A stretch of DNA of 24,034 nt from a virus. The DNA lies in the UHGV virus genome UHGV-0029496; one strand, given 5' to 3'. The notes under the pieces were generated by a model. The model had not been told where the DNA came from, ran no database searches, and worked only from the letters and a program-made list of their open reading frames with translations. Shown in pieces: positions 512 through 12,602 of the stretch. Made by a program: the position numbers and the translations under genes. Position 1 is the stretch's first letter, and each line of letters begins with the position of its first letter.

Positions 512-3139
512 TTAGCTAAAACCGTTGCTGAATCCGCCGGAGAAACCGCGACCGAAGGGTGCGACACCGTCGTATTTATAGAAATCCGCTTCATAGTTAA
601 CCCCGGTAATCTTAACTGTTCTGTCATCTCCGGGGTCAACTGTAGAAACAAGAATCATCTGAGCATTATGCCTTGCTTCGTTGCCGAATGAAAACTCAGT
701 TTTTAGTGCGCTATTCCCTGTGTAAATTGCCTCCTGCGGCGCGGATAACATAACCACTTCACGGTCATGACTTCCAGGAACTACAGCGACGCTCTGGACA
801 CCACCGTCGCGCTTCTTAAGGATTAAAGAGTGGTCGTCACCCGGAGTAAATGTGACAGGCTGTGATAAAGTCAGAGTAAGACCATTAACGGCAACAACAT
901 AGCCGTCTTGAGGCGCTACGCGCGAACCTTTAACGACGCTTATTGCGCGACCCGGCAGCACAAAAACTCCCTCTTCTGTCGCTGTAAAGGACACCGTGAC
1001 TTTCTTCAACAGGTTCTTCTGGTACCGACGGTACGCCGCCCAGTACGCCTGACGATAATTACGTATACCTTTGGAGTCATACGTTTCAGTATTAACACCA
1101 CCTTCGGCTGGGATGCTGATGGTCTCTTTTACGTTAGTATCTGGGTCGATGTAGGAGAACTTAAGACTATCATATACCTGAGCGTCGTTGAACGTTCGGG
1201 TCCACTTCTCCGTAGCTGTAGTCTTGCTGCGATGTGTGAACACCATCTCCGGGCCAATCCGCGGGCGCTCGAAATCCAGTAATATGTCCTGCCCTTTACG
1301 ATATGGTATGCAGAAAATAGCGTCGGCTATTGTGCTGATTATGTCCTGCATAGTCATTTTATAATCGTCAAAAGTGTAGCAGAATTGACCGGCCTCTGCG
1401 TTACCGAAATAGTTTTCTATCTCGTTCTGAGTCGCTAACAACTTGTCCATATTGGATGTGGTTAGGTTGAGATTACCTACTACCGGGTCGCGGGCAAGAC
1501 GGATTAAGGACTGAATCGCCTGAGTATTTGGTGTCATAACCGTGTCGAATACGCCGTTGCCGAGGTATTTGTACACCATCTCTGTGGCAACCATACGTAG
1601 TTGCGGCTGCTTAATCTCCGCGGCCCGCGGCGTCTGCTTACGTGCGGAGTGCACGGTAGTACGGTTGCCGTAATGCGGTGTAGTGTCGCGTACCTGCCCA
1701 TAAAGATTGATGTAGGAAACCTCATCTACCACGGTTCCCTCAAAACTGAGGTCCAGGTCAGTGACGCGGCGGGCACGTACCCTAACTTTCGACCGCATGG
1801 GCAAGTCGGCGTAAATAGTAACACCTGTGTAATCCGCAGAACGACCTGATATAACGGCCTGTTTTGAGTAAACATCACCGTACGGCACGCCAGTTCCATC
1901 AAGGAGTTGATACTGAAGCTCGACAGTTACCGACGTGCGCAATTTACTGCCGTTGTCTTTATACATACCATTCGCGGCCGCGATGTTGGCTACTACACGT
2001 TCAACTTCCAGGCGGTTTAAGGTAGTCCAGTCCGTTAACGACTTATCGTAAGTGTTCGACGGTGAAATCCATGCTTCGGTACCTTGCGTTAAAGGAGTGA
2101 ATCCCGATGGCAATTTTTGCCATGCTGACAACATCCCTCCGACGGCTACTCTTACCTCAAAGTCATCTACGTATGTAACAGTATAGCTACCACTGACGTT
2201 AGCCACGTCTTTTACCAGAATAAGGTTAAAAACAGCTATGTCCCCAACTGATAAAATCTCAGAGAAAGCAGAGTCGCCAGTGTTATCGCGGACGACACCA
2301 GTTGCCCCCTGCAATGAAATCTCACCGGTATCACTGGGATTAACCCTGATGTCGTTCTGCGCTTTAAGAACAGCCCCATCTACCTCGTTCGAGGTAATAG
2401 TTATGTATAGATTTTGATTAATAGGATCCCCTACCAGAAGCTGAGGCGTATTTGTATTGTTAGGGGATGTAAATGGGGCGTATACCGCTACAGAAGTTCC
2501 TGTAATCTCCTGCACTTTAGTATCGCCGTCTGTGATGTCTTCGGCTTTAATATCAAGATACCCGCGACCGGCGTCATAGTAGCCGTATTCAACTACCACA
2601 CCTGCGTCATTGAAGACCTTATACGTAGTCATGAGGTCATTAGGGATAGTCTGGACCCTGCCGCAAATATCATACGACCGTTCATACGGCCGCGGTTTAT
2701 TGTTTCGGTCAGTCAGGCTGTTGTTGGGAGACTCCGCCTGCTGGTTCGCTAAACTCGTTTTAGGCGTTTTCTGCGACGGAGAAATCAACTTGGTAATAAA
2801 TTTAAGCACACCCAAAGGGTCAAGGAGTTTACCCAGAAAACCACCACCGCCGCCAGCACCCTCGATGATATGGAAAACGTCATCTTCTTTCAGCGCTTCG
2901 AAGTTTTCCGTTACGTCTGTATCATCACCAATCTCGCCGCGGTAAATACGCACAGGTACCCCGTCTGGGATGTTAGCAACGACGTATTCCATCGGAGGTA
3001 CGTTATACCGTTTGCGGTCAAAAGTACCGTCTTCGTTACGGGTGTAATGTAATATCAGCGCCAAAATTCTATCTCCGCATAAGTTTCGCGCAAGTCTTCC
3101 AGTCGGTCTAACCGTACCTGGCGACTTGCTAGCTCGCAA
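512..3139 (-). CDS. Tail tip protein: gpI-like N-terminal domain fused to a large J-like central fibre / host-specificity protein
   Basis: 875-codon ORF. N-terminal VRIYRGEIG...VFHIIEGAGGGGGFLGKLL resembles lambda tail assembly protein I (VIHIVPRVAGAKSGG). Track start is TTG at 3139; alternatives are TTG 3064 (GGAGA SD) or ATG 2992. Position after K-like gene. Confidence 0.6.
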   Translation of the reverse strand: MRASKSPGTVRPTGRLARNLCGDRILALILHYTRNEDGTFDRKRYNVPPMEYVVANIPDGVPVRIYRGEIGDDTDVTENFEALKEDDVFHIIEGAGGGGGFLGKLLDPLGVLKFITKLISPSQKTPKTSLANQQAESPNNSLTDRNNKPRPYERSYDICGRVQTIPNDLMTTYKVFNDAGVVVEYGYYDAGRGYLDIKAEDITDGDTKVQEITGTSVAVYAPFTSPNNTNTPQLLVGDPINQNLYITITSNEVDGAVLKAQNDIRVNPSDTGEISLQGATGVVRDNTGDSAFSEILSVGDIAVFNLILVKDVANVSGSYTVTYVDDFEVRVAVGGMLSAWQKLPSGFTPLTQGTEAWISPSNTYDKSLTDWTTLNRLEVERVVANIAAANGMYKDNGSKLRTSVTVELQYQLLDGTGVPYGDVYSKQAVISGRSADYTGVTIYADLPMRSKVRVRARRVTDLDLSFEGTVVDEVSYINLYGQVRDTTPHYGNRTTVHSARKQTPRAAEIKQPQLRMVATEMVYKYLGNGVFDTVMTPNTQAIQSLIRLARDPVVGNLNLTTSNMDKLLATQNEIENYFGNAEAGQFCYTFDDYKMTMQDIISTIADAIFCIPYRKGQDILLDFERPRIGPEMVFTHRSKTTATEKWTRTFNDAQVYDSLKFSYIDPDTNVKETISIPAEGGVNTETYDSKGIRNYRQAYWAAYRRYQKNLLKKVTVSFTATEEGVFVLPGRAISVVKGSRVAPQDGYVVAVNGLTLTLSQPVTFTPGDDHSLILKKRDGGVQSVAVVPGSHDREVVMLSAPQEAIYTGNSALKTEFSFGNEARHNAQMILVSTVDPGDDRTVKITGVNYEADFYKYDGVAPFGRGFSGGFSNGFS

Positions 3140-3932: not shown

Positions 3933-3935
3933 AAA

Positions 3936-5306
3936 TTAACCGTCCACATTAAAGTCGATACGAGTGATGTATTTACTACCCCACACGGAATCTGCCTGTG
4001 GAATAATGGCGTAATCATCTACAGCCGGAACGTTCACCATGGAGCCATCTGAATAGGCAATGTCGATACTTGTTGCGCCGTTCATTACTACTTTTGCTGA
4101 TGCCGTCGTGCGCGTTCCTGGTGACAATTCGGTTACTATCGGGGACGAGGCAAAGCCGCGTTTTTCTATTTGCGGATTGAAAACAATAATTCCGCTAATA
4201 CCATCTCCCTGAAATGAGCCGTTTGTTGCAGAGGCGTATAGCATAACCCTGTACTGAGCTGATAACGAAGATAGCCTCGATGCGTCGAAAGATATTGATA
4301 CAGACGCATAACCACCAAGATCCGCAATAGATGCCACTCCACCGAACGATGATTTGATAACTTTGCTATCAATGTCTGCAACAACAGATGCGACGTCAAA
4401 ATTATCCGAGTTTCTTATATATAATCTTAAAAAATCCAAACCATTACCAGCCGCTATGACGCTGAATGTAACATAATCTTCTGCATCTAATTGCATGTTT
4501 TGAGAAAAGTAATGAGACCCGCTGGTTGTAGTAGCGATCACTGAAAATATATCCGATGTAGCTTCTCTATTGACTGTGACGTTTGTTAGTGAAGAAGATG
4601 AAATGTCTCCTGAATTTATATAAAGATTTTCAGAATAATATTCTGGAGGCACCCGTCCGACAGCAACCCCATCGATAAACGTAAGGGGCCATTCATTTAC
4701 GGCGGACTGCACAAGATTACCGTTTCGGTTGATGTAATAAACCTGCGGCCCGTCATACACAATGCGACTATCCAGCGTGAGCGCCAGAAGGTTGATCGGC
4801 GGATAGCCGGCTGGCCCTTCATCGCTCCTGATGCGCGGGAACGTAGTCTCATAGTTCGCGTATACTTTCAGGAAACTACCCAGACAATCCCCGTAACAGC
4901 CATACAAATCTGGCAGATTCTTAGTAAGACATGTGTCTTCCTGAATTGCTGTGCGCTCTGCTGTAGCAGTAAACGTAATGACCCAGTTTTTACCGTCGTC
5001 TGTGCTATCGCTAATGTCGGACGTAATAAGAACCTTGTGGTCTTCGATACCTAAACCGGTATCATGAGGCATGATGAACGAAGATGCCCCGCCGTCTATG
5101 TTATTCAGGAAGCTATAGAAAGCCTGACGGCCTAGTGACGATACGACCAGGGTAACGCTAATAGGTACCGGTTCGAAGTATGTATCACGCCCCTGTCGAG
5201 GCACGCCACCTTGCACTTCTGTACGCCAGATATTACTCCCTCGCGTTTGGGAGTACCCCTTCGACACTATTGGTCGAAGGGACATAGGGAATCTCAAATC
5301 ACTCAT
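3936..5306 (-). CDS. Distal tail protein, gpM-like N-terminal domain with long C-terminal extension
   Basis: 456 aa directly after the tape measure gene; N-terminus has the GYSQ motif seen in lambda gpM (GDGYSQRAP); about 340 extra residues, partly encoded by a visibly AT-rich segment (about 4380-4700). Confidence 0.55.
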   Translation of the reverse strand: MSDLRFPMSLRPIVSKGYSQTRGSNIWRTEVQGGVPRQGRDTYFEPVPISVTLVVSSLGRQAFYSFLNNIDGGASSFIMPHDTGLGIEDHKVLITSDISDSTDDGKNWVITFTATAERTAIQEDTCLTKNLPDLYGCYGDCLGSFLKVYANYETTFPRIRSDEGPAGYPPINLLALTLDSRIVYDGPQVYYINRNGNLVQSAVNEWPLTFIDGVAVGRVPPEYYSENLYINSGDISSSSLTNVTVNREATSDIFSVIATTTSGSHYFSQNMQLDAEDYVTFSVIAAGNGLDFLRLYIRNSDNFDVASVVADIDSKVIKSSFGGVASIADLGGYASVSISFDASRLSSLSAQYRVMLYASATNGSFQGDGISGIIVFNPQIEKRGFASSPIVTELSPGTRTTASAKVVMNGATSIDIAYSDGSMVNVPAVDDYAIIPQADSVWGSKYITRIDFNVDG

Positions 5307-7619: not shown

Positions 7620-7983
7620 CTTCTCTGCCCTCAAATATTCCGTCTAAGCCCATGATAACCTCGGCTTCGAACAAACTTATGCCGTAACCGGCGACATCAC
7701 GAAACGCTACCAAATCTTGCCATTTGAGCGCATCGCGCGGGATTATAACGATAGTATCATCTGTTTCGCGCTGTAGGAATTTAATGGCACGGTATTTCTC
7801 GAACACGTCGATAAGAGAAACGGGGCATTCTGGCCCCGTCGCTTCTTTCATCTGCGGTTCTTTAATCACGCCCATTGCAATCAAAGCCGCCTGGTGCCCT
7901 GCCGCGATGTCGTCGAATTGCTTACGTTTGTGGCGGTCGACAAAGCACCATTGCGCAAACTCATACAGCGCTTTTACTTTTCC
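7612..7983 (-). CDS. Tail assembly chaperone -1 frameshift extension (gpT-like), expressed as a G-T fusion
   Basis: The -1 frame relative to the G ORF is open from 7998 to the stop at 7612-7614 and overlaps the last G codons; slip candidate G-GAA-AAG at 7977-7983 (minus strand) just before the G stop. Confidence 0.45.
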   Translation of the reverse strand, partial: GKVKALYEFAQWCFVDRHKRKQFDDIAAGHQAALIAMGVIKEPQMKEATGPECPVSLIDVFEKYRAIKFLQRETDDTIVIIPRDALKWQDLVAFRDVAGYGISLFEAEVIMGLDGIFEGREDG

Positions 7984-8390
7984 GAGAGTTTCTCGCGGCT
8001 ATCAGTATGGTGCTTAACTACGGCTTCTGCCAGTCCGCTGTACTGGTCAAACAGGTTAGCCAGCGCCTCTTTGCTGAACGGTTCGTCGAATGACCAACCG
8101 GTGACGATTTCCACGGCAAGCTGCTTGTTCAGGTCCATCACCCGCCAGCCCTTCTCATCGTTATAGCGCGCCCAGTTATTCAGTGCCTCGCACTCTTTAT
8201 CTAATGGCGCAAGTTCTTCCGTAAGGCGGCGAATTGCCGTTGTGTAGGCGCGGCCCGCACGAACACCCGCGTCACAATCGGGGCCAATGACCTGCAACCA
8301 TTCGCCGGAGTCCTTACCACTCGGCAGAAGGATAGGCATTTTAGTGCCGGCGGCGTGGCGGTCGGCAAAATAGAAATCAGAAAGTTTCAT
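7974..8390 (-). CDS. Tail assembly chaperone (gpG-like)
   Basis: 138 aa acidic protein immediately upstream of the tape measure gene; AAGGA SD before ATG 8390; followed by an overlapping -1 frame ORF. Confidence 0.55.
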   Translation of the reverse strand: MKLSDFYFADRHAAGTKMPILLPSGKDSGEWLQVIGPDCDAGVRAGRAYTTAIRRLTEELAPLDKECEALNNWARYNDEKGWRVMDLNKQLAVEIVTGWSFDEPFSKEALANLFDQYSGLAEAVVKHHTDSREKLSEK

Positions 8391-8482
8391 TCTTTAATCC
8401 TTTGGTTAAGAGGTTACGGGTTAAGGTTGACGCGCCAGACGGGAACCACCCGCTTTTCGTGTGCGACACTAGGCGCAAACTT

Positions 8483-8516
8483 ATTCTAGCACACTACTTG
8501 CACACCCCAATATAAT
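8483..8516. promoter_or_regulatory. Divergent promoter candidates in the 164-bp gap between the chaperone gene (minus) and the plus-strand cassette
   Basis: Plus strand: perfect TATAAT at 8511-8516, about 40 nt before ATG 8555, weak -35. Minus strand: TAGAAT (plus 8483-8488) with TTGGGG 16 nt upstream. Confidence 0.25.
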
Positions 8517-8554
8517 AGGGTACTATTCACCTGTAACTTACTGAGGAAATAATT

Positions 8555-8881
8555 ATGCGTAAATTAGTATTAGCTCTGGGGTTTATGTCTTTTGCGGCTT
8601 TTGGGTCCTCGTGCGAACAGGCATTTAGTGAATCTGTTCTTATGACTTCTGGTGTGCTTGAGAAAGCCGACCCTACTATTGTAAAGGCATTTAGGGACTC
8701 TACCGTTCGCGAGTGTGAGGCCGCCGTGGAGGTTGGTAAATCGGGCCTACCCCCGCAAGCCGTAACATACACGGTAATACGTTCGGTAGAGAAAAACGGA
8801 GATGCGTTTTACAGCCTACTGACAGCCACCCGTCTGCAAATGGTAATGACGGGTTGGGCAGTAGGCGCAGAAAGTAAATAG
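8555..8881 (+). CDS. Small secreted protein or possible lipoprotein
   Basis: GAGGAA SD 6 nt before ATG; N-terminus MRKLVLALGFMSFAAFGSSC is a classic signal peptide with Cys at 20 (non-canonical lipobox); three Cys in total. Confidence 0.6.
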   Translation: MRKLVLALGFMSFAAFGSSCEQAFSESVLMTSGVLEKADPTIVKAFRDSTVRECEAAVEVGKSGLPPQAVTYTVIRSVEKNGDAFYSLLTATRLQMVMTGWAVGAESK

Positions 8882-8945
8882 TTGCCTTTATTTAAAGAAC
8901 GCACTGTGGCTAAATAGGACAAATCCTAAACACGAGGAAGTAAGT

Positions 8946-10076
8946 ATGGCCCAGAAGAAAATAACCGACGAACAGTTACAGGAAGAATTGAACGCCGGGA
9001 TGAAGAATATCGACATCGCACGTAAATATGGCATCTCAGACCGCGTTATTCGTATCCGTAAAGCGAAGCTGGCTAAGAAAGGTGTAGGCCACGGGCGTGA
9101 CGTTAGTCACCTTGTGCCGGACGGTTACAAGATTAAAGGAACGTCGTCACTGGTGGACGAGTTCGGCAACACTAAGTTGCAATGGGTTAAGACCGACACC
9201 GATGCCGAACGTCAGGTCGAATTGATGAAAGCCGTAATCGAAGGAATGAAGTCAGAGATTACGCCAGTTGCGCCTGTTAAAGCCATTCGCGCTAAACGCG
9301 ATGACAAGCTACTTAATCTTTACACGGTATCTGATTTTCATCTCGGTATGCTGGCATGGGCGGATGAGAGCGGCGACGACTGGGATATGAAGATTGCGGA
9401 AGACCTGTTCTCCCGATGGTTCGACGCGGCATTCCAGAAAGCACCGGATGCAGGAACAGGAGTTATTAATCTGTTAGGTGACTTCGCACACTTTGATAGT
9501 CTTGATGCCGTTACGCCCGAGTCGTGCCATGTGCTAGACGCGGATACGCGCTACCAGAAACTTGTCCGCTACATGATTCGCATGGTCCGCCGTGTTGTTG
9601 ATATGGCGCTGGTTAAGCATAACACCGTAAAACTTTTAATCATTCAAGGTAACCACGACCCTGTCGGCTCCGTATGGCTGTCCGAAATGTTCTGCACATT
9701 GTATGACAACGAACCTCGCGTATTTGTGGACACCTCCCCCGACGTATACAAGATGGTTCAGCACGGGAAAACTACACTATTCATGCACCACGGACACCGT
9801 GCGAGATTCGACGCCATAGAGTCGGTAATGATTTCTAAATTCCGTAAGGCTTTCGGAGAAAGCACATACAGCTACGCCCACGTAGGCCACCTGCACCATC
9901 AGAAGATTGTAGAAAGCCGTAACATGATTGTTGAGCAACACCGCACCTTAGCGGCTAAAGACGCCTACGCCTCTCGCGGCGGATGGATGTCAGGCCGTAG
10001 CGCGAATGTAATTACTTATAGCGCCGAATATGGTGAGGTCGCTCGTTTAACTATTTCACCGGAGATGCTGGGATGA
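8946..10076 (+). CDS. HTH domain fused to a calcineurin-like metallophosphoesterase (Mre11/SbcD-like motifs)
   Basis: GAGGAAG SD; N-terminal HTH-like segment IDIARKYGISDRVIRIRKAKL; motifs DFHLG (DxH), GDFAHFD (GDxxD), GNHD, HHGH, GHLHH in the canonical order. Confidence 0.7.
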   Translation: MAQKKITDEQLQEELNAGMKNIDIARKYGISDRVIRIRKAKLAKKGVGHGRDVSHLVPDGYKIKGTSSLVDEFGNTKLQWVKTDTDAERQVELMKAVIEGMKSEITPVAPVKAIRAKRDDKLLNLYTVSDFHLGMLAWADESGDDWDMKIAEDLFSRWFDAAFQKAPDAGTGVINLLGDFAHFDSLDAVTPESCHVLDADTRYQKLVRYMIRMVRRVVDMALVKHNTVKLLIIQGNHDPVGSVWLSEMFCTLYDNEPRVFVDTSPDVYKMVQHGKTTLFMHHGHRARFDAIESVMISKFRKAFGESTYSYAHVGHLHHQKIVESRNMIVEQHRTLAAKDAYASRGGWMSGRSANVITYSAEYGEVARLTISPEMLG

Positions 10077-10303
10077 CTTCAAAATACAACCGCACAATGA
10101 CAAACACCCACGGCAGCACTATGACTGTAGACGTTTACGATGTTCTCCGTGCTTTCGACATCCGCGACCCAGCGCTACAGCACGCATTAAAGAAACTGCT
10201 GTGCATGGGCTTGCGTGGTCACAAGGACACCGGGACCGACTTAGCGGAAGCGATTGAAAGTCTGGAGAAGTTACAGGAATACCGGAGTAATATTGATGAG
10301 TAA
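10073..10303 (+). CDS. Small hypothetical protein, translationally coupled to the phosphoesterase gene
   Basis: ATG overlaps the upstream TGA (ATGA at 10073-10076); 76 aa, helical and charged (DPALQHALKKLL...DLAEAIESLEKLQE). Confidence 0.55.
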   Translation: MTSKYNRTMTNTHGSTMTVDVYDVLRAFDIRDPALQHALKKLLCMGLRGHKDTGTDLAEAIESLEKLQEYRSNIDE

Positions 10304-10451: not shown

Positions 10452-10463
10452 CCGATAAATAGT

Positions 10464-10483
10464 AAGGCCCTGAAAGGGGCCTT
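10464..10483 (+). terminator. GC-rich hairpin after the three-gene operon (weak terminator or attenuator)
   Basis: aaggccc-tgaaag-gggcctt, 7-bp stem, no clear U-tract. Confidence 0.3.
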
Positions 10484-10496
10484 ATCGCAACAGGAG

Positions 10497-10991
10497 ATGA
10501 TTATGGACTGGAATGAATTTTTCATATACGACTTAATTTCAGGAAGGATATTTAACAGAGTAACACGTTCCGGGAGGGCTAAGGCTGGAGAGGAGGCAGG
10601 TACGGTACAGCGAGACGGATATAGAAGGATATTTTTCAGGGGTAAATGGCACGCGGCGCACCGTATAGCTTGGGACTTAAACAATACTAACAATAAGCTA
10701 ACCTCGTCAGATCAAATAGACCATCTAGACCATAACCGAATAAACAATAGGCCGCTTAACTTAGCTAAAAAGTCCAATGCGGAAAACCATAAAAATATGT
10801 CAAAACAGCGTAATAATAAATCAGGAGTAACCGGGGTTTACTGGAACGCGAAAGAAAGGTTGTGGTACGCACAGATATTCAACAATAACGTAAAAACACA
10901 CATCGGGTGCTTTAAAACGCTACTAGATGCAGTTGCCGCAAGGAGAGTTGCTGAAAGAGATTTAGGGTTCCACGAGAACCACGGTAAATAG
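10497..10991 (+). CDS. HNH homing endonuclease with C-terminal AP2-like DNA-binding domain
   Basis: HNH core AHRIAWDL...IDHLDHNRINNRPLNL; C-terminal GVTGVYWNAKERLWYAQI...IGCFKTLLDAVAARR is AP2-like; Asn-rich and AT-rich codon usage unlike neighbours. AGGAG abuts ATG 10497, so ATG 10503 may be the true start. Confidence 0.75.
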   Translation: MIMDWNEFFIYDLISGRIFNRVTRSGRAKAGEEAGTVQRDGYRRIFFRGKWHAAHRIAWDLNNTNNKLTSSDQIDHLDHNRINNRPLNLAKKSNAENHKNMSKQRNNKSGVTGVYWNAKERLWYAQIFNNNVKTHIGCFKTLLDAVAARRVAERDLGFHENHGK

Positions 10992-10992
10992 T

Positions 10993-11016
10993 AAGGCCCC
11001 TTTCGGGGCCTTTTCC
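10993..11016. terminator. Bidirectional rho-independent terminator between convergent genes
   Basis: aaggcccc-tttc-ggggcctt followed by ttttcc on the plus strand; also U-rich on the minus strand. Sits between the plus HNH stop (10991) and the minus major tail stop (11017). Confidence 0.7.
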
Positions 11017-12183
11017 TTACGCGTAGCTAATACGCTGTATTACAATAGAAGATTGATATTGATTGCCTGTGGACTGTCCTTCTATGCTCTGAGTTATTGA
11101 TTCTGGCCCCCCAATCTCTGGTGTAACCGCCGTAAGTTCTGCGCGTTTCAGGCTGAAAGACATAGCCCCGTTTACCCCGGCCAGAATAGAGTTAATCTCC
11201 ACCTGCTGTTCGTTGATAAACTTCTGAATCATCACCATGTCGTACAGCTTGCCGGAGATAGAGAAGGTGTTAGCCGCGCGACCACGTTCCACGAACGCAA
11301 CGCTACTGTTGCCGAGTTCGAACTGTGCGGAAGCACCGTTGTCGTTGGTGATGGTCAGAGTATCGCAACGCAACGGCGTAGAGCCGTCGAACACAGACAC
11401 ATCTACAGATGAGAACGGCTCATCGGTAAACGTCACCTGAGAGAAATCAGAGCCTGCTGGCGGTGCGGTAAGAATCTCCTGACTCAGGCCGATGAACGGG
11501 AAGCTGCCAGTTACCATAGCGTTAACCGCCTGCTCTACGGTGAAGCCGGAGATTTCCACGCCTTTGGTGAGCATATACGCGTCCGGGTTGCCGCACTGGC
11601 CCTTGAACCACGTCAGGATGGAGAACGTCTTACATGCGTTACCGGTTTCCAGCTTGTCACCCGTTTTTGCGTCAGTGGTTACTGTCTCAGCCGTTAGCGT
11701 GTGCTGAATGCCAGCACCCGTAACTACCAGAGCGGAAACCGCAGTTACGATGAACGGTTTGGCGTTGTCGCCGGTTAAGCCGGTGAACGCAATCAGGTCG
11801 CCAACTTCTACGCCGTCAGTGACGAAGCTACCCGCCGCGCGAGTGAACGTCTTGCCAGTTGGCTCTACAGTGATGGACGCGCCCGTAATTTCTGCCCCAG
11901 CCTGCCATGTAGAAGTCATCGCGCCTGCAAGGAAATCATCCTGGCTACGGGAGCTAAGTTCAATAGCATACTCCCCGCTAACCTGCTTGTTACCGGTTCG
12001 GATGGATGTAGTTTCACGGCTGCCGTCGAGTTCGTTGGAAGTAAGCGCATCGCGGGTTACGGCAGGAACGCCGCCAGTGTTACGCAACGGTGACCATACC
12101 GGGTTAGTCGGTGTTACGCCCGGGGTAGTTTCCGCCACATAGAATTGCGCGGTATTCGCGCCCTTAAAAGGAGTTGTAGCCAT
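11017..12183 (-). CDS. Major tail (tube) protein
   Basis: 388 aa Thr/Gly/Ser-rich beta-type protein after the neck genes; AAGAGG SD before ATG 12183 (track start is GTG 12189); TGAATATG junction with the upstream gene. Confidence 0.6.
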   Translation of the reverse strand: MATTPFKGANTAQFYVAETTPGVTPTNPVWSPLRNTGGVPAVTRDALTSNELDGSRETTSIRTGNKQVSGEYAIELSSRSQDDFLAGAMTSTWQAGAEITGASITVEPTGKTFTRAAGSFVTDGVEVGDLIAFTGLTGDNAKPFIVTAVSALVVTGAGIQHTLTAETVTTDAKTGDKLETGNACKTFSILTWFKGQCGNPDAYMLTKGVEISGFTVEQAVNAMVTGSFPFIGLSQEILTAPPAGSDFSQVTFTDEPFSSVDVSVFDGSTPLRCDTLTITNDNGASAQFELGNSSVAFVERGRAANTFSISGKLYDMVMIQKFINEQQVEINSILAGVNGAMSFSLKRAELTAVTPEIGGPESITQSIEGQSTGNQYQSSIVIQRISYA

Positions 12184-12185
12184 AT

Positions 12186-12602
12186 TCACAGCCTCTTGGT
12201 GAATGCAATAAAGTTAATAGACAATGGTCGTTTGGCCCATCCGTTCTCTACAATCAGCGGCCCCAGGCTAACCGATTGAACCTCGGCGCAGATGTCGTTA
12301 CGTGAAAATGACTTACCTGCTTTAAACGCCGTGTTAAGTAAGTCTGCCATTTTATTGATTGGCGCGCTACCTTTCACCGATGCGTAGTTAATGTCAACCT
12401 GATAAATACCTGAGCGTTGTTCCGTGAAGAACAAATCAGCCTGCTCGGTATCCGCAAGTAACATGTAACTTGCCAGATACGGAGTATCGGTTGACGTCGG
12501 CGCGTCGATGTTTTCAAGCGCGACCTTGATGCCGTTGGTGGTTCCGAAGGCTACCAGTGGCACATCGAACGCTTTTGTTAAGTCCTCAAAGTAGCCCATC
12601 AT
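12186..12602 (-). CDS. Neck protein, tail-terminator-like by position
   Basis: 138 aa; start overlaps upstream stop (ATGATGA); immediately upstream of the major tail gene. Confidence 0.4.
   Translation of the reverse strand: MMGYFEDLTKAFDVPLVAFGTTNGIKVALENIDAPTSTDTPYLASYMLLADTEQADLFFTEQRSGIYQVDINYASVKGSAPINKMADLLNTAFKAGKSFSRNDICAEVQSVSLGPLIVENGWAKRPLSINFIAFTKRL

What the first reader, a model, noticed from the sequence alone, without database searches (positions are those of the whole stretch)
8555..8881. Secreted small protein at a tail-module locus: candidate superinfection-exclusion or receptor-masking factor
The N-terminus is a textbook signal peptide (MRKLVLALGFMSFAAFG) with a Cys shortly after the cleavage region, so it may be a lipoprotein with a non-canonical lipobox. 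The gene has a strong SD and sits just downstream of a perfect TATAAT. In several siphophages, small lipoproteins that block the phage's own receptor (Cor-type, Llp-type) are encoded within or beside the tail genes in a separately transcribed unit. Position and architecture fit that pattern; sequence similarity to those proteins was not established.
Basis: inference. Interest (0 to 1): 0.55.

Follow-up and report, generated by a model that had tools for sequence, protein, structure and literature searches.

The report
Secreted phage protein in superinfection-immunity slot
This is a real, conserved gene of a Kagunavirus-type E. coli phage for a small exported protein (probably soluble in the periplasm, not a lipoprotein); in most related phages the same genome position holds a T4 Imm-type superinfection-immunity gene, so it most likely blocks entry of competing phages, though this is untested.

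Summary
The ORF at 8555-8881 (+) is real. It encodes 108 aa, belongs to phrog_14165 (unknown function), and has dN/dS of 0.06-0.17 against close relatives. The window is a Kagunavirus (Guernseyvirinae) siphophage.

The signal peptide, the Shine-Dalgarno sequence and the TATAAT are all present. The lipoprotein reading fails for the family. About 35 homologues carry Pro, Gln, Thr or Val just before the Cys; only this window has Ser (CCG to TCG). Cys20 and Cys54 are invariant, which fits Sec export, signal peptidase I cleavage after Gly17 and one periplasmic disulfide. The AlphaFold2 model (pLDDT 84) is all-helical and has no informative structural neighbour. There is no homology to Cor, Llp or T4 Spackle.

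The main new evidence is positional. The gene always sits first after a conserved promoter, divergent from the tail-assembly-chaperone gene. Among 76 related loci this slot holds a T4 Imm-type superinfection-immunity protein (27), this family (23, never together with Imm), or other secreted, lipoprotein or membrane proteins. It is empty in 6 and holds a cytoplasmic protein in 2. One relative has about 85% identical flanks but a 38% identical allele swapped in.

Best reading: a periplasmic superinfection-exclusion factor of a new family. It is not a receptor-masking lipoprotein. The function is inferred, not shown.

The parts
8498..8526 (+). Conserved sigma-70-like promoter of the slot gene: -35 TTGCA(C) at 8498-8503, 17-nt spacer, -10 TACTAT at 8521-8526
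   Evidence: In alignment A4 of 12 relatives, TTGCA and TA...T are invariant whichever gene follows, Imm or this family. The promoter scores only 7/12 against consensus, so the consensus scan did not report it. Function is inferred from conservation.
8511..8516 (+).
   Evidence: It is present. It lies in the spacer of the conserved promoter, has no -35 at 16-18 nt, and is conserved only in close Kagunavirus relatives.
8544..8548 (+). Shine-Dalgarno sequence GAGGA, 6 nt before the ATG
   Evidence: Read directly from the sequence.
8555..8881 (+). ORF of 108 aa, member of phrog_14165, a secreted two-Cys all-helical protein
8555..8605 (+). Predicted Sec signal peptide (residues 1-17), with signal peptidase I cleavage AFG|SS
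   Evidence: The -3/-1 rule applied across the alignments. The only cleavage site allowed in all homologues is after G17 (Kagunavirus type) or after SFA (Jersey type), because Pro follows at +2. No SignalP was available, so this is an inference.
8609..8614 (+). Ser19 (TCG) and Cys20 (TGC). Ser19 is the window-specific substitution that creates a PROSITE-compatible lipobox FGSS|C.
   Evidence: All other homologues have P, Q, T or V at this position.
8714..8716 (+). Cys54, the invariant partner of Cys20 (putative disulfide)
   Evidence: It is invariant in A1 and A2 down to 27% identity.
8489..8860 (+). Exchangeable cassette segment: promoter-proximal DNA plus almost the whole ORF
   Evidence: In blastn against L004, homology at about 85% stops at 8488 and resumes at 8861. 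L004 carries a 38% identical allele (P0030) in between.
8946..10303 (+). Downstream genes, probably co-transcribed with the ORF: HTH-metallophosphoesterase (8946-10076) and a small phrog_2452 protein (10073-10303). This is variable cargo of the cassette.
   Evidence: No hairpin terminator was seen by eye in 8882-8945. This cargo is absent or different in relatives.
7974..8390 (-). Tail assembly chaperone gene, the divergent neighbour that anchors the slot
   Evidence: PF08748 and phrog_15027. It was used to survey 80 loci.
11017..12189 (-). Tail tube gene, the other boundary of the slot and cassette
   Evidence: PF18906 at E = 3e-35.

Best explanation
The gene encodes a small protein that is exported by the Sec pathway. 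Signal peptidase I most likely cuts it after Gly17. It folds in the periplasm into a compact bundle of about 90 residues and five helices, held by one disulfide (Cys20-Cys54).

It is transcribed by host RNA polymerase from a conserved promoter that points away from the tail genes. The position it occupies in Guernseyvirinae genomes is an exchangeable slot for envelope-targeted proteins. In most relatives that slot holds a homologue of T4 Imm, the inner-membrane superinfection-immunity protein.

The most likely job is therefore superinfection exclusion exerted from the periplasm. After infection the protein would accumulate in the periplasm and block a conserved step of genome delivery by later-arriving related phages. 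It could do this by binding their tail-tip or tape-measure conduit, or a host periplasmic or inner-membrane component they need.

Shown here: a real gene under purifying selection, export signal features, an invariant Cys pair, an all-helical model, slot sharing with Imm, and allele replacement. Inferred: the cleavage site, the disulfide, the periplasmic location, the exclusion function and its target.
For: - Real gene: phrog_14165 at E = 9e-53; dN/dS 0.06-0.17.
- Export: signal peptides are present in all homologues, including those at 27-40% identity.
- Not lipidated: 22/22 homologues fail the lipobox rule, as do 13 further loci.
- Conserved core: Cys20, Cys54, W101 and G104 are invariant.
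- Structure: AF2 model with pLDDT 83.9 and pTM 0.73, all-alpha.
- Fixed position: the gene is the first gene divergent from the chaperone gene in ten examined loci (L003-L010, L013, L015), and it is the only opposite-strand gene in L006 and phiEap-2.
- Imm in the same slot: SE2 and K1ind1 carry PF14373 Imm_superinfect there (E = 1.9e-15 and 2e-13, above the gathering score; phrog_1039). About 350 records match the Guernseyvirinae Imm at 60% identity or more; weaker matches include annotated T-even imm genes at 50-53%.
- Slot survey of 76 loci: Imm 27; this family 23, never both; distant secreted two-Cys proteins 6; single-pass membrane proteins 8; canonical lipoproteins 3; other two-transmembrane protein 1; cytoplasmic 2; empty 6. 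By a crude hydrophobicity test, only 10 of 82 Bas71 proteins have a hydrophobic segment.
- No Imm gene anywhere in the complete Bas71 genome or in the window.
- The same conserved promoter drives either occupant.
- Allele swap with about 85% identical flanks.
- Literature: Kagunavirus phage P differs from phages G and L in the chaperone gene and in having a superinfection-immunity gene (PMC5582158). G and L carry this family.
- The family was not found in 185,579 bacterial and archaeal species genomes.
Against: - There is no experimental evidence for any member.
- Sharing a position with Imm is guilt by association. Only T4 Imm itself has been characterised, and the slot could simply tolerate any small envelope protein.
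- There is no similarity to any known exclusion protein.
- No peptidoglycan-hydrolase domain was found in the tail proteins of the window, so a Spackle-type target is missing.
- L058, L072 and L073 carry a single-pass membrane protein together with a family member, so slot occupants are not always alternatives.
- The surveyed loci are not independent; many come from one metagenome.
- No SignalP or LipoP run and no model coordinates were available, so the cleavage site and the disulfide rest on rules and conservation.
Confidence: 0.45

Rival explanations
1. Outer-membrane lipoprotein of the Cor or Llp type that masks the phage's own receptor. In this particular phage the Pro19-to-Ser change could have created a functional lipobox, FGSS|C.
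For: - The window sequence alone passes a PROSITE PS51257-like rule.
- One subfamily (P0028, L058, L066) has a canonical lipobox, AVLG|C, upstream of the conserved Cys pair.
- Three related loci carry unrelated canonical lipoproteins (LSGC, LAGC) in the same slot.
Against: - 0 of 22 homologues and 0 of 13 further loci have A, G or S at -1.
- Gly at -3 is rare in lipoboxes (general knowledge).
- Lipidating Cys20 would destroy the invariant Cys20-Cys54 pair.
- There is no similarity to Cor (phrog_1119) or to any lipoprotein family.
- The gene is about 5 kb from the receptor-binding-protein locus.
- Kagunavirus phages use glycans through tailspikes (PMC11990801), yet the protein is about 93% identical between K1-capsule and O16-antigen phages.
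Confidence: 0.1
2. Periplasmic regulator of lysis timing, comparable to the periplasmic domain of the T4 RI antiholin, which senses or transmits superinfection signals to the holin.
For: It is a small, helical, exported phage protein. T4 RI is likewise exported and helical (general knowledge, not tested here).
Against: - The gene is far from the lysis cassette (holin and endolysin at 39.6-40.7 kb in Bas71).
- It shares its slot with Imm, not with lysis genes.
- The lysis cassettes of relatives look ordinary: Phage_holin_3_3 in L008, and Phage_lysozyme plus Phage_lysis in L007-L009. No holin periplasmic domain was examined.
Confidence: 0.08
3. Host-takeover or counter-defence factor acting on a host periplasmic or envelope component for the benefit of the current infection, and not concerned with other phages. 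Examples would be inhibiting an envelope stress response, a protease or vesiculation.
For: Strong purifying selection within an allele together with replacement between alleles also fits an arms race with a host target. The family is confined to virulent phages.
Against: There is no hit to any defence or anti-defence family. The positional partner with a known function is an exclusion protein. Alleles at 93% identity occur in phages of hosts with different surface glycans, and 56-60% identical alleles occur in Salmonella phages, so any host target would have to be broadly conserved.
Confidence: 0.2
4. A chance ORF, or a dispensable remnant with no function.
For: No function or domain is known for it.
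Against: dN/dS is 0.06-0.17. It is conserved to 27% identity with invariant residues. It has a confident structure model and a conserved promoter and Shine-Dalgarno sequence.
Confidence: 0.02

Closest known systems
T4 Spackle (gp61.3; PDB 6X6O, 6XC0)
   Same: Both are small phage proteins with a cleaved signal peptide, a compact all-helical periplasmic domain of about 75-90 residues, and one Cys pair that ties the N-terminal short helix to a later helix (PMC7677548). In T4, Spackle partners Imm in superinfection exclusion. Here the protein alternates with an Imm homologue in one slot.
T4 Imm / Pfam PF14373 Imm_superinfect
   Same: It occupies the identical genome slot and uses the same promoter in sister phages. 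It is also envelope-targeted.
   Different: Imm-type proteins are 59-63 aa inner-membrane proteins with two transmembrane segments. This protein is a soluble exported 108-aa precursor with no sequence similarity to them.
Cor (phi80/T1/N15) and Llp (T5) exclusion lipoproteins
   Same: They are small exported proteins of siphophages encoded in or near tail genes, and are thought to protect the infected cell from further infection.
   Different: Cor and Llp are lipoproteins that block the protein receptor FhuA, and they are encoded next to the receptor-binding gene (general knowledge; T5 in PMC9586334). This family has no lipobox, no sequence or fold similarity, is not next to the receptor-binding gene, and belongs to glycan-dependent phages.
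Ltp of Streptococcus phage TP-J34
   Same: A helical, exported exclusion protein reported to block DNA injection through the tape-measure protein (general knowledge). This is the kind of mechanism proposed here.
   Different: Ltp is a lipoprotein of a temperate Gram-positive phage with helix-turn-helix-like repeats. It did not appear among the fold matches.

Membership tests
phrog_14165 (unknown function) | Significant full-length match to the family profile | tested here: met
   E = 9e-53, residues 1-108 against profile positions 1-109 of 109.
Bacterial lipoprotein (signal peptidase II substrate) | Lipobox [LVI..][ASTVI..][AGS]-Cys at the end of the hydrophobic region, conserved in the family | tested here: not met
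   The window alone (FGSS|C) passes a PROSITE-like rule. 0 of 22 homologues pass (Pro or Gln at -1), and 13 further loci have Pro or Thr. LipoP and labelling experiments were not available.
Cor superinfection exclusion (phrog_1119) | Sequence similarity to Cor | tested here: not met
   The PHROG and Pfam scans returned only phrog_14165.
Cor/Llp type | Gene directly beside the receptor-binding or tail-fibre gene | tested here: not met
   The gene lies between the tail-tube and chaperone genes. The tailspike locus is downstream of the J-like gene 512-3139 (PMC11990801).
Cor/Llp type | Blocks the phage's own outer-membrane protein receptor (FhuA) | not testable with these tools
   Kagunavirus phages are reported to depend on glycans (PMC11990801). 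No protein receptor is known for them.
T4 Spackle | Sequence or profile homology to gp61.3 | tested here: not met
   hhalign probability 2.3%, with only the signal peptide aligned. The Spackle sequence was verified against 6X6O.
T4 Spackle | Same fold | tested here: not met
T4 Spackle | Exported, all-helical, one disulfide | tested here: inconclusive
   The signal peptide and an all-alpha model were found, and the Cys pair is invariant. The disulfide geometry could not be checked.
T4 Spackle | Tail-borne lysozyme as target | tested here: not met
   Pfam finds no peptidoglycan-hydrolase domain in the tape-measure, distal tail or J-like proteins of the window.
Pfam PF14373 Imm_superinfect | Match to the Pfam profile; two-transmembrane membrane protein | tested here: not met
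   No Pfam hit. The local Imm HMM gave no hit in the window. Only the genome position is shared.

The most novel reading that the evidence does not exclude
The region between the tail-tube and chaperone genes of Guernseyvirinae is a dedicated, rapidly exchanging 'entry-immunity' slot. At least six unrelated families of exported or membrane proteins alternate there behind one conserved promoter: the Imm type, this two-Cys helical family, single-pass YebO-like proteins, canonical lipoproteins, and others. The phrog_14165 family would be a new class of soluble periplasmic superinfection-exclusion protein. It would block a conserved, glycan-independent step of siphophage genome delivery. That would reveal both a new exclusion mechanism and the still unknown periplasmic or inner-membrane entry step of these phages.
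Probability: 0.35. Interest if true: 0.65.

Novelty: new variant of a known kind. Interest (0 to 1): 0.45.

Why it matters
How small virulent siphophages that recognise only surface glycans move their DNA across the periplasm and inner membrane is unknown. A periplasmic factor that blocks that step would be a direct handle on it.

Kagunavirus and Jerseyvirus phages are widely isolated for therapy and biocontrol. Mutual exclusion between cocktail members that carry different slot alleles would affect cocktail design.

The slot also offers a ready list of candidate exclusion proteins from several unrelated families. These can be tested in the BASEL phage-host system.

Tried and rejected
- Pfam: no hit for the ORF.
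- PADLOC: no hit.
- Profile search of PDB sequences: none at E ≤ 10.
- Foldseek against PDB: nothing with E < 1.
- Foldseek against BFVD: only uncharacterised phage proteins, plus low-probability mycobacteriophage DUF732 proteins.
- The afdb50 library was not available.
- hhalign against T4 Spackle: negative.
- The representative search gave one spurious hit, P0029, a 744-aa protein built of long tandem repeats, matched through a short GVLKTSG-like motif. It was discarded.
- Searching the window for further copies of the promoter-associated motif ANCA-N6-TTGCA gave 2 matches against 0.9 expected, which is not informative.
- The consensus promoter scan did not support the TATAAT as a -10 element.
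- Scan of 185,579 species genomes for the family: nothing. The A2 alignment was too diverse for that tool.
- Literature searches found no experimental work on this protein or on exclusion in Guernseyvirinae.
- The Cys-Cys distance in the model could not be measured because coordinates are not exposed.

Full report
**Identity of the window.** The region 7900-10100 is 89-94% identical to Escherichia phages of the genus Kagunavirus (Guernseyvirinae). These include vB_Eco_AMO_3701M, the BASEL isolates Bas70-76 and K1H. On the minus strand the window carries the structural module, running from terminase to the J-like tail-tip protein. That module is interrupted between the tail-tube gene (11017-12189) and the tail-assembly-chaperone gene (7974-8390) by a plus-strand cassette. 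The cassette contains the ORF in question (8555-8881), an HTH-metallophosphoesterase (8946-10076), a small phrog_2452 protein (10073-10303) and an HNH endonuclease (10497-10991).

**The observation.**
- a 108-aa ORF beginning MRKLVLALGFMSFAAFGSSCEQ;
- GAGGA 6 nt before the ATG;
- TATAAT at 8511-8516.

The ORF is a real gene. It matches phrog_14165 end to end (E = 9e-53). It is found in 99 phage records, all of them Escherichia, Shigella or Salmonella phages or records named Kagunavirus. A profile search of 1.8 billion representatives found relatives down to 27% identity. Against ten close relatives dN/dS is 0.06-0.17. Nothing related was found in one genome per bacterial species. The two 'Salmonella enterica' entries sit on contigs of 42-43 kb, which is phage-genome size.

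**Lipoprotein or not.** The window sequence alone satisfies a PROSITE-style lipobox rule (FGSS|C). All 22 database homologues fail it, because the residue before the Cys is Pro (Gln in one). Thirteen further loci have Pro or Thr, and the distant relatives have Pro, Thr or Val. The window's Ser19 is TCG where the relatives have Pro. Cys20 and Cys54 are both invariant across the whole family.

The only signal-peptidase site compatible with all members is after G17 in the Kagunavirus type (AFG|S-P/S-C) and after SFA in the Jersey type (SFA|HPC). This is a signal peptidase I site. I infer a soluble periplasmic protein with one disulfide. Lipidating Cys20 would leave Cys54 unpaired. One subfamily (P0028, L058, L066) has a canonical lipobox (AVLG|C) eleven or twelve residues upstream of the conserved pair. 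A lipid-tethered version of the domain may therefore exist there.

**Structure.** An AlphaFold2 model built on a 14-sequence alignment has mean pLDDT 83.9 and pTM 0.73. Beyond the signal peptide it is all-helical, with helices at 19-25, 28-31, 40-62, 68-76 and 84-106. Fold searches gave no informative neighbour:
- Foldseek against PDB gave nothing with E < 1.
- Foldseek against the viral structure set BFVD gave only uncharacterised phage proteins.
- A profile search of PDB sequences found nothing.

**Genomic position, the key evidence.** In distant relatives from metagenomes, and in phages Jersey, phiEap-2, Eta and Esher4, the homologue is always the first gene divergent from the chaperone gene. 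In L006 and phiEap-2 it is the only opposite-strand gene between chaperone and tube. Elsewhere the downstream cargo varies.

In Salmonella phage SE2 and Escherichia phage K1ind1 the same position holds a 59-63 aa protein with two transmembrane segments. This protein matches Pfam PF14373 Imm_superinfect above the gathering score (E = 1.9e-15 and 2e-13) and phrog_1039 'immunity to superinfection'. About 350 phage records match it at 60% identity or more, and weaker matches include annotated T-even imm genes at 50-53% identity.

I then surveyed 80 IMG/VR loci found through the chaperone protein. Seventy-six had enough upstream sequence to read the slot:

| Slot occupant | Loci |
|---|---|
| Imm type | 27 |
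| This family (never with Imm within 2.5 kb) | 23 |
| More distant secreted two-Cys proteins (one weakly hits phrog_14165) | 6 |
| YebO-like single-pass membrane proteins | 8 |
| Canonical lipoproteins | 3 |
| Another two-transmembrane protein | 1 |
| Cytoplasmic phrog_1273 protein | 2 |
| Empty (tube gene abuts chaperone gene) | 6 |

So 68 of 70 occupied slots begin with an exported or membrane protein. By a crude hydrophobicity test, about 12% of the annotated Bas71 proteins have a hydrophobic segment. The complete Bas71 genome and the window contain no Imm homologue. The loci are not independent, but at least six unrelated envelope-protein families are involved.

A published comparison had already noted that Kagunavirus phage P differs from phages G and L in the chaperone gene and in having a superinfection-immunity gene (PMC5582158). 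G and L carry the present family.

**Promoter and cassette boundaries.** I aligned the chaperone-to-slot intergenic region of 12 relatives. TTGCA (8498-8502) and TA...T (8521-8526, TACTAT here) are invariant at fixed spacing whichever gene follows. It is conserved only in close relatives and has no -35 of its own.

Against L004, homology of about 85% ends at 8488 and resumes at 8861. The allele in between is only 38% identical at the protein level, while the L004 chaperone protein is 97% identical to the window's. This is a discrete allele replacement. Together with the strong purifying selection within alleles, it is the pattern expected of a gene in an arms race.

**Mechanism.** The only slot occupant with a characterised relative is Imm, which in T4 blocks DNA transfer of superinfecting phage (PMC7677548 and general knowledge). 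T4's second exclusion protein, Spackle, resembles the present protein in architecture. It has a cleaved signal peptide, a mature helical bundle of 75 residues and one disulfide, and it acts in the periplasm on the incoming tail lysozyme (PMC7677548).

The present family is nevertheless not a Spackle homologue. hhalign gives a probability of 2.3%, Spackle is not among the fold matches, and no lysozyme domain is detectable in the tail proteins of the window.

The protein is about 93% identical between the K1-capsule phage K1H and the O16-antigen phages Bas70 and Bas73 (receptors from PMC11990801). Its target is therefore not the primary glycan receptor, which argues against receptor masking. I propose a periplasmic block of a conserved genome-delivery step. 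The target would be either the incoming tail-tip or tape-measure conduit, or a host component that conduit needs. I put export and periplasmic location at about 0.85, the exclusion function at about 0.45, and leave the target open.

**Verdict.** The family is uncharacterised, and its alternation with Imm in a hypervariable envelope-protein slot did not appear in the papers I could search. Interest is moderate and the idea is readily testable in the BASEL system.

Noticed in passing
window 8432-8476 (- strand), within the intergenic region 8391-8554: A conserved structured RNA lies in the leader of the chaperone/tape-measure operon. It gives a sub-threshold Rfam hit to RF02996 int-alpA RNA (27.7 bits against a gathering score of 35.8; E = 0.0014). 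RNAalifold on 10 relatives gives an outer stem enclosing two hairpins, and 9 of 14 pairs show compensatory changes. Its function is unknown. It could be a processing or antitermination element for late tail transcription across the inserted cassette.
   Followed up: partly
window 10461-10486 and 10989-11014: The HNH endonuclease gene (10497-10991) is bracketed by two copies of the same GC-rich hairpin, TAGTAAGGCCCC-loop-GGGGCCTTAT, a bidirectional terminator type. Bas71 lacks the HNH gene: homology is lost between 10310 and 10993. This suggests a homing-endonuclease insertion that duplicated the terminator.
   Followed up: partly
L069, L071, L077 (IMG/VR loci), slot upstream of the chaperone gene: Some relatives carry genuine small lipoproteins (84-87 aa, lipoboxes LSGC and LAGC, several extra Cys) in the same slot. 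Others carry YebO-like single-pass membrane proteins (phrog_5031) or a 65-aa protein with two transmembrane segments. All are uncharacterised candidates for exclusion factors.
   Followed up: partly
L058, L072, L073: These three loci carry a YebO-like membrane protein, a 65-aa cytoplasmic protein and a member of the secreted family in tandem in the slot. Slot occupants can therefore be stacked and are not only alternatives.
   Followed up: no
window 8946-10076 (+): The metallophosphoesterase (phrog_704, 'DNA repair exonuclease') has an N-terminal helix-turn-helix region with weak GerE/LuxR-type and 'late transcriptional activator' hits. It is conserved next to the slot gene in many relatives but absent in others.
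   Followed up: no
window 3936-5306 (-): The protein encoded just downstream of the tape-measure gene is 456 aa here and about 466 aa in Bas71. In Jersey, phiEap-2 and the metagenomic relatives it is only 157-166 aa. Homology to L004 is lost over 3933-4860. This probably reflects an inserted extra domain in the distal tail protein; Pfam finds nothing.
   Followed up: no
window 8527-8772 (-): An 81-aa GTG-initiated ORF lies antisense to the gene. The codon-level selection pattern supports the plus-strand frame. I treated the antisense ORF as spurious.
   Followed up: no
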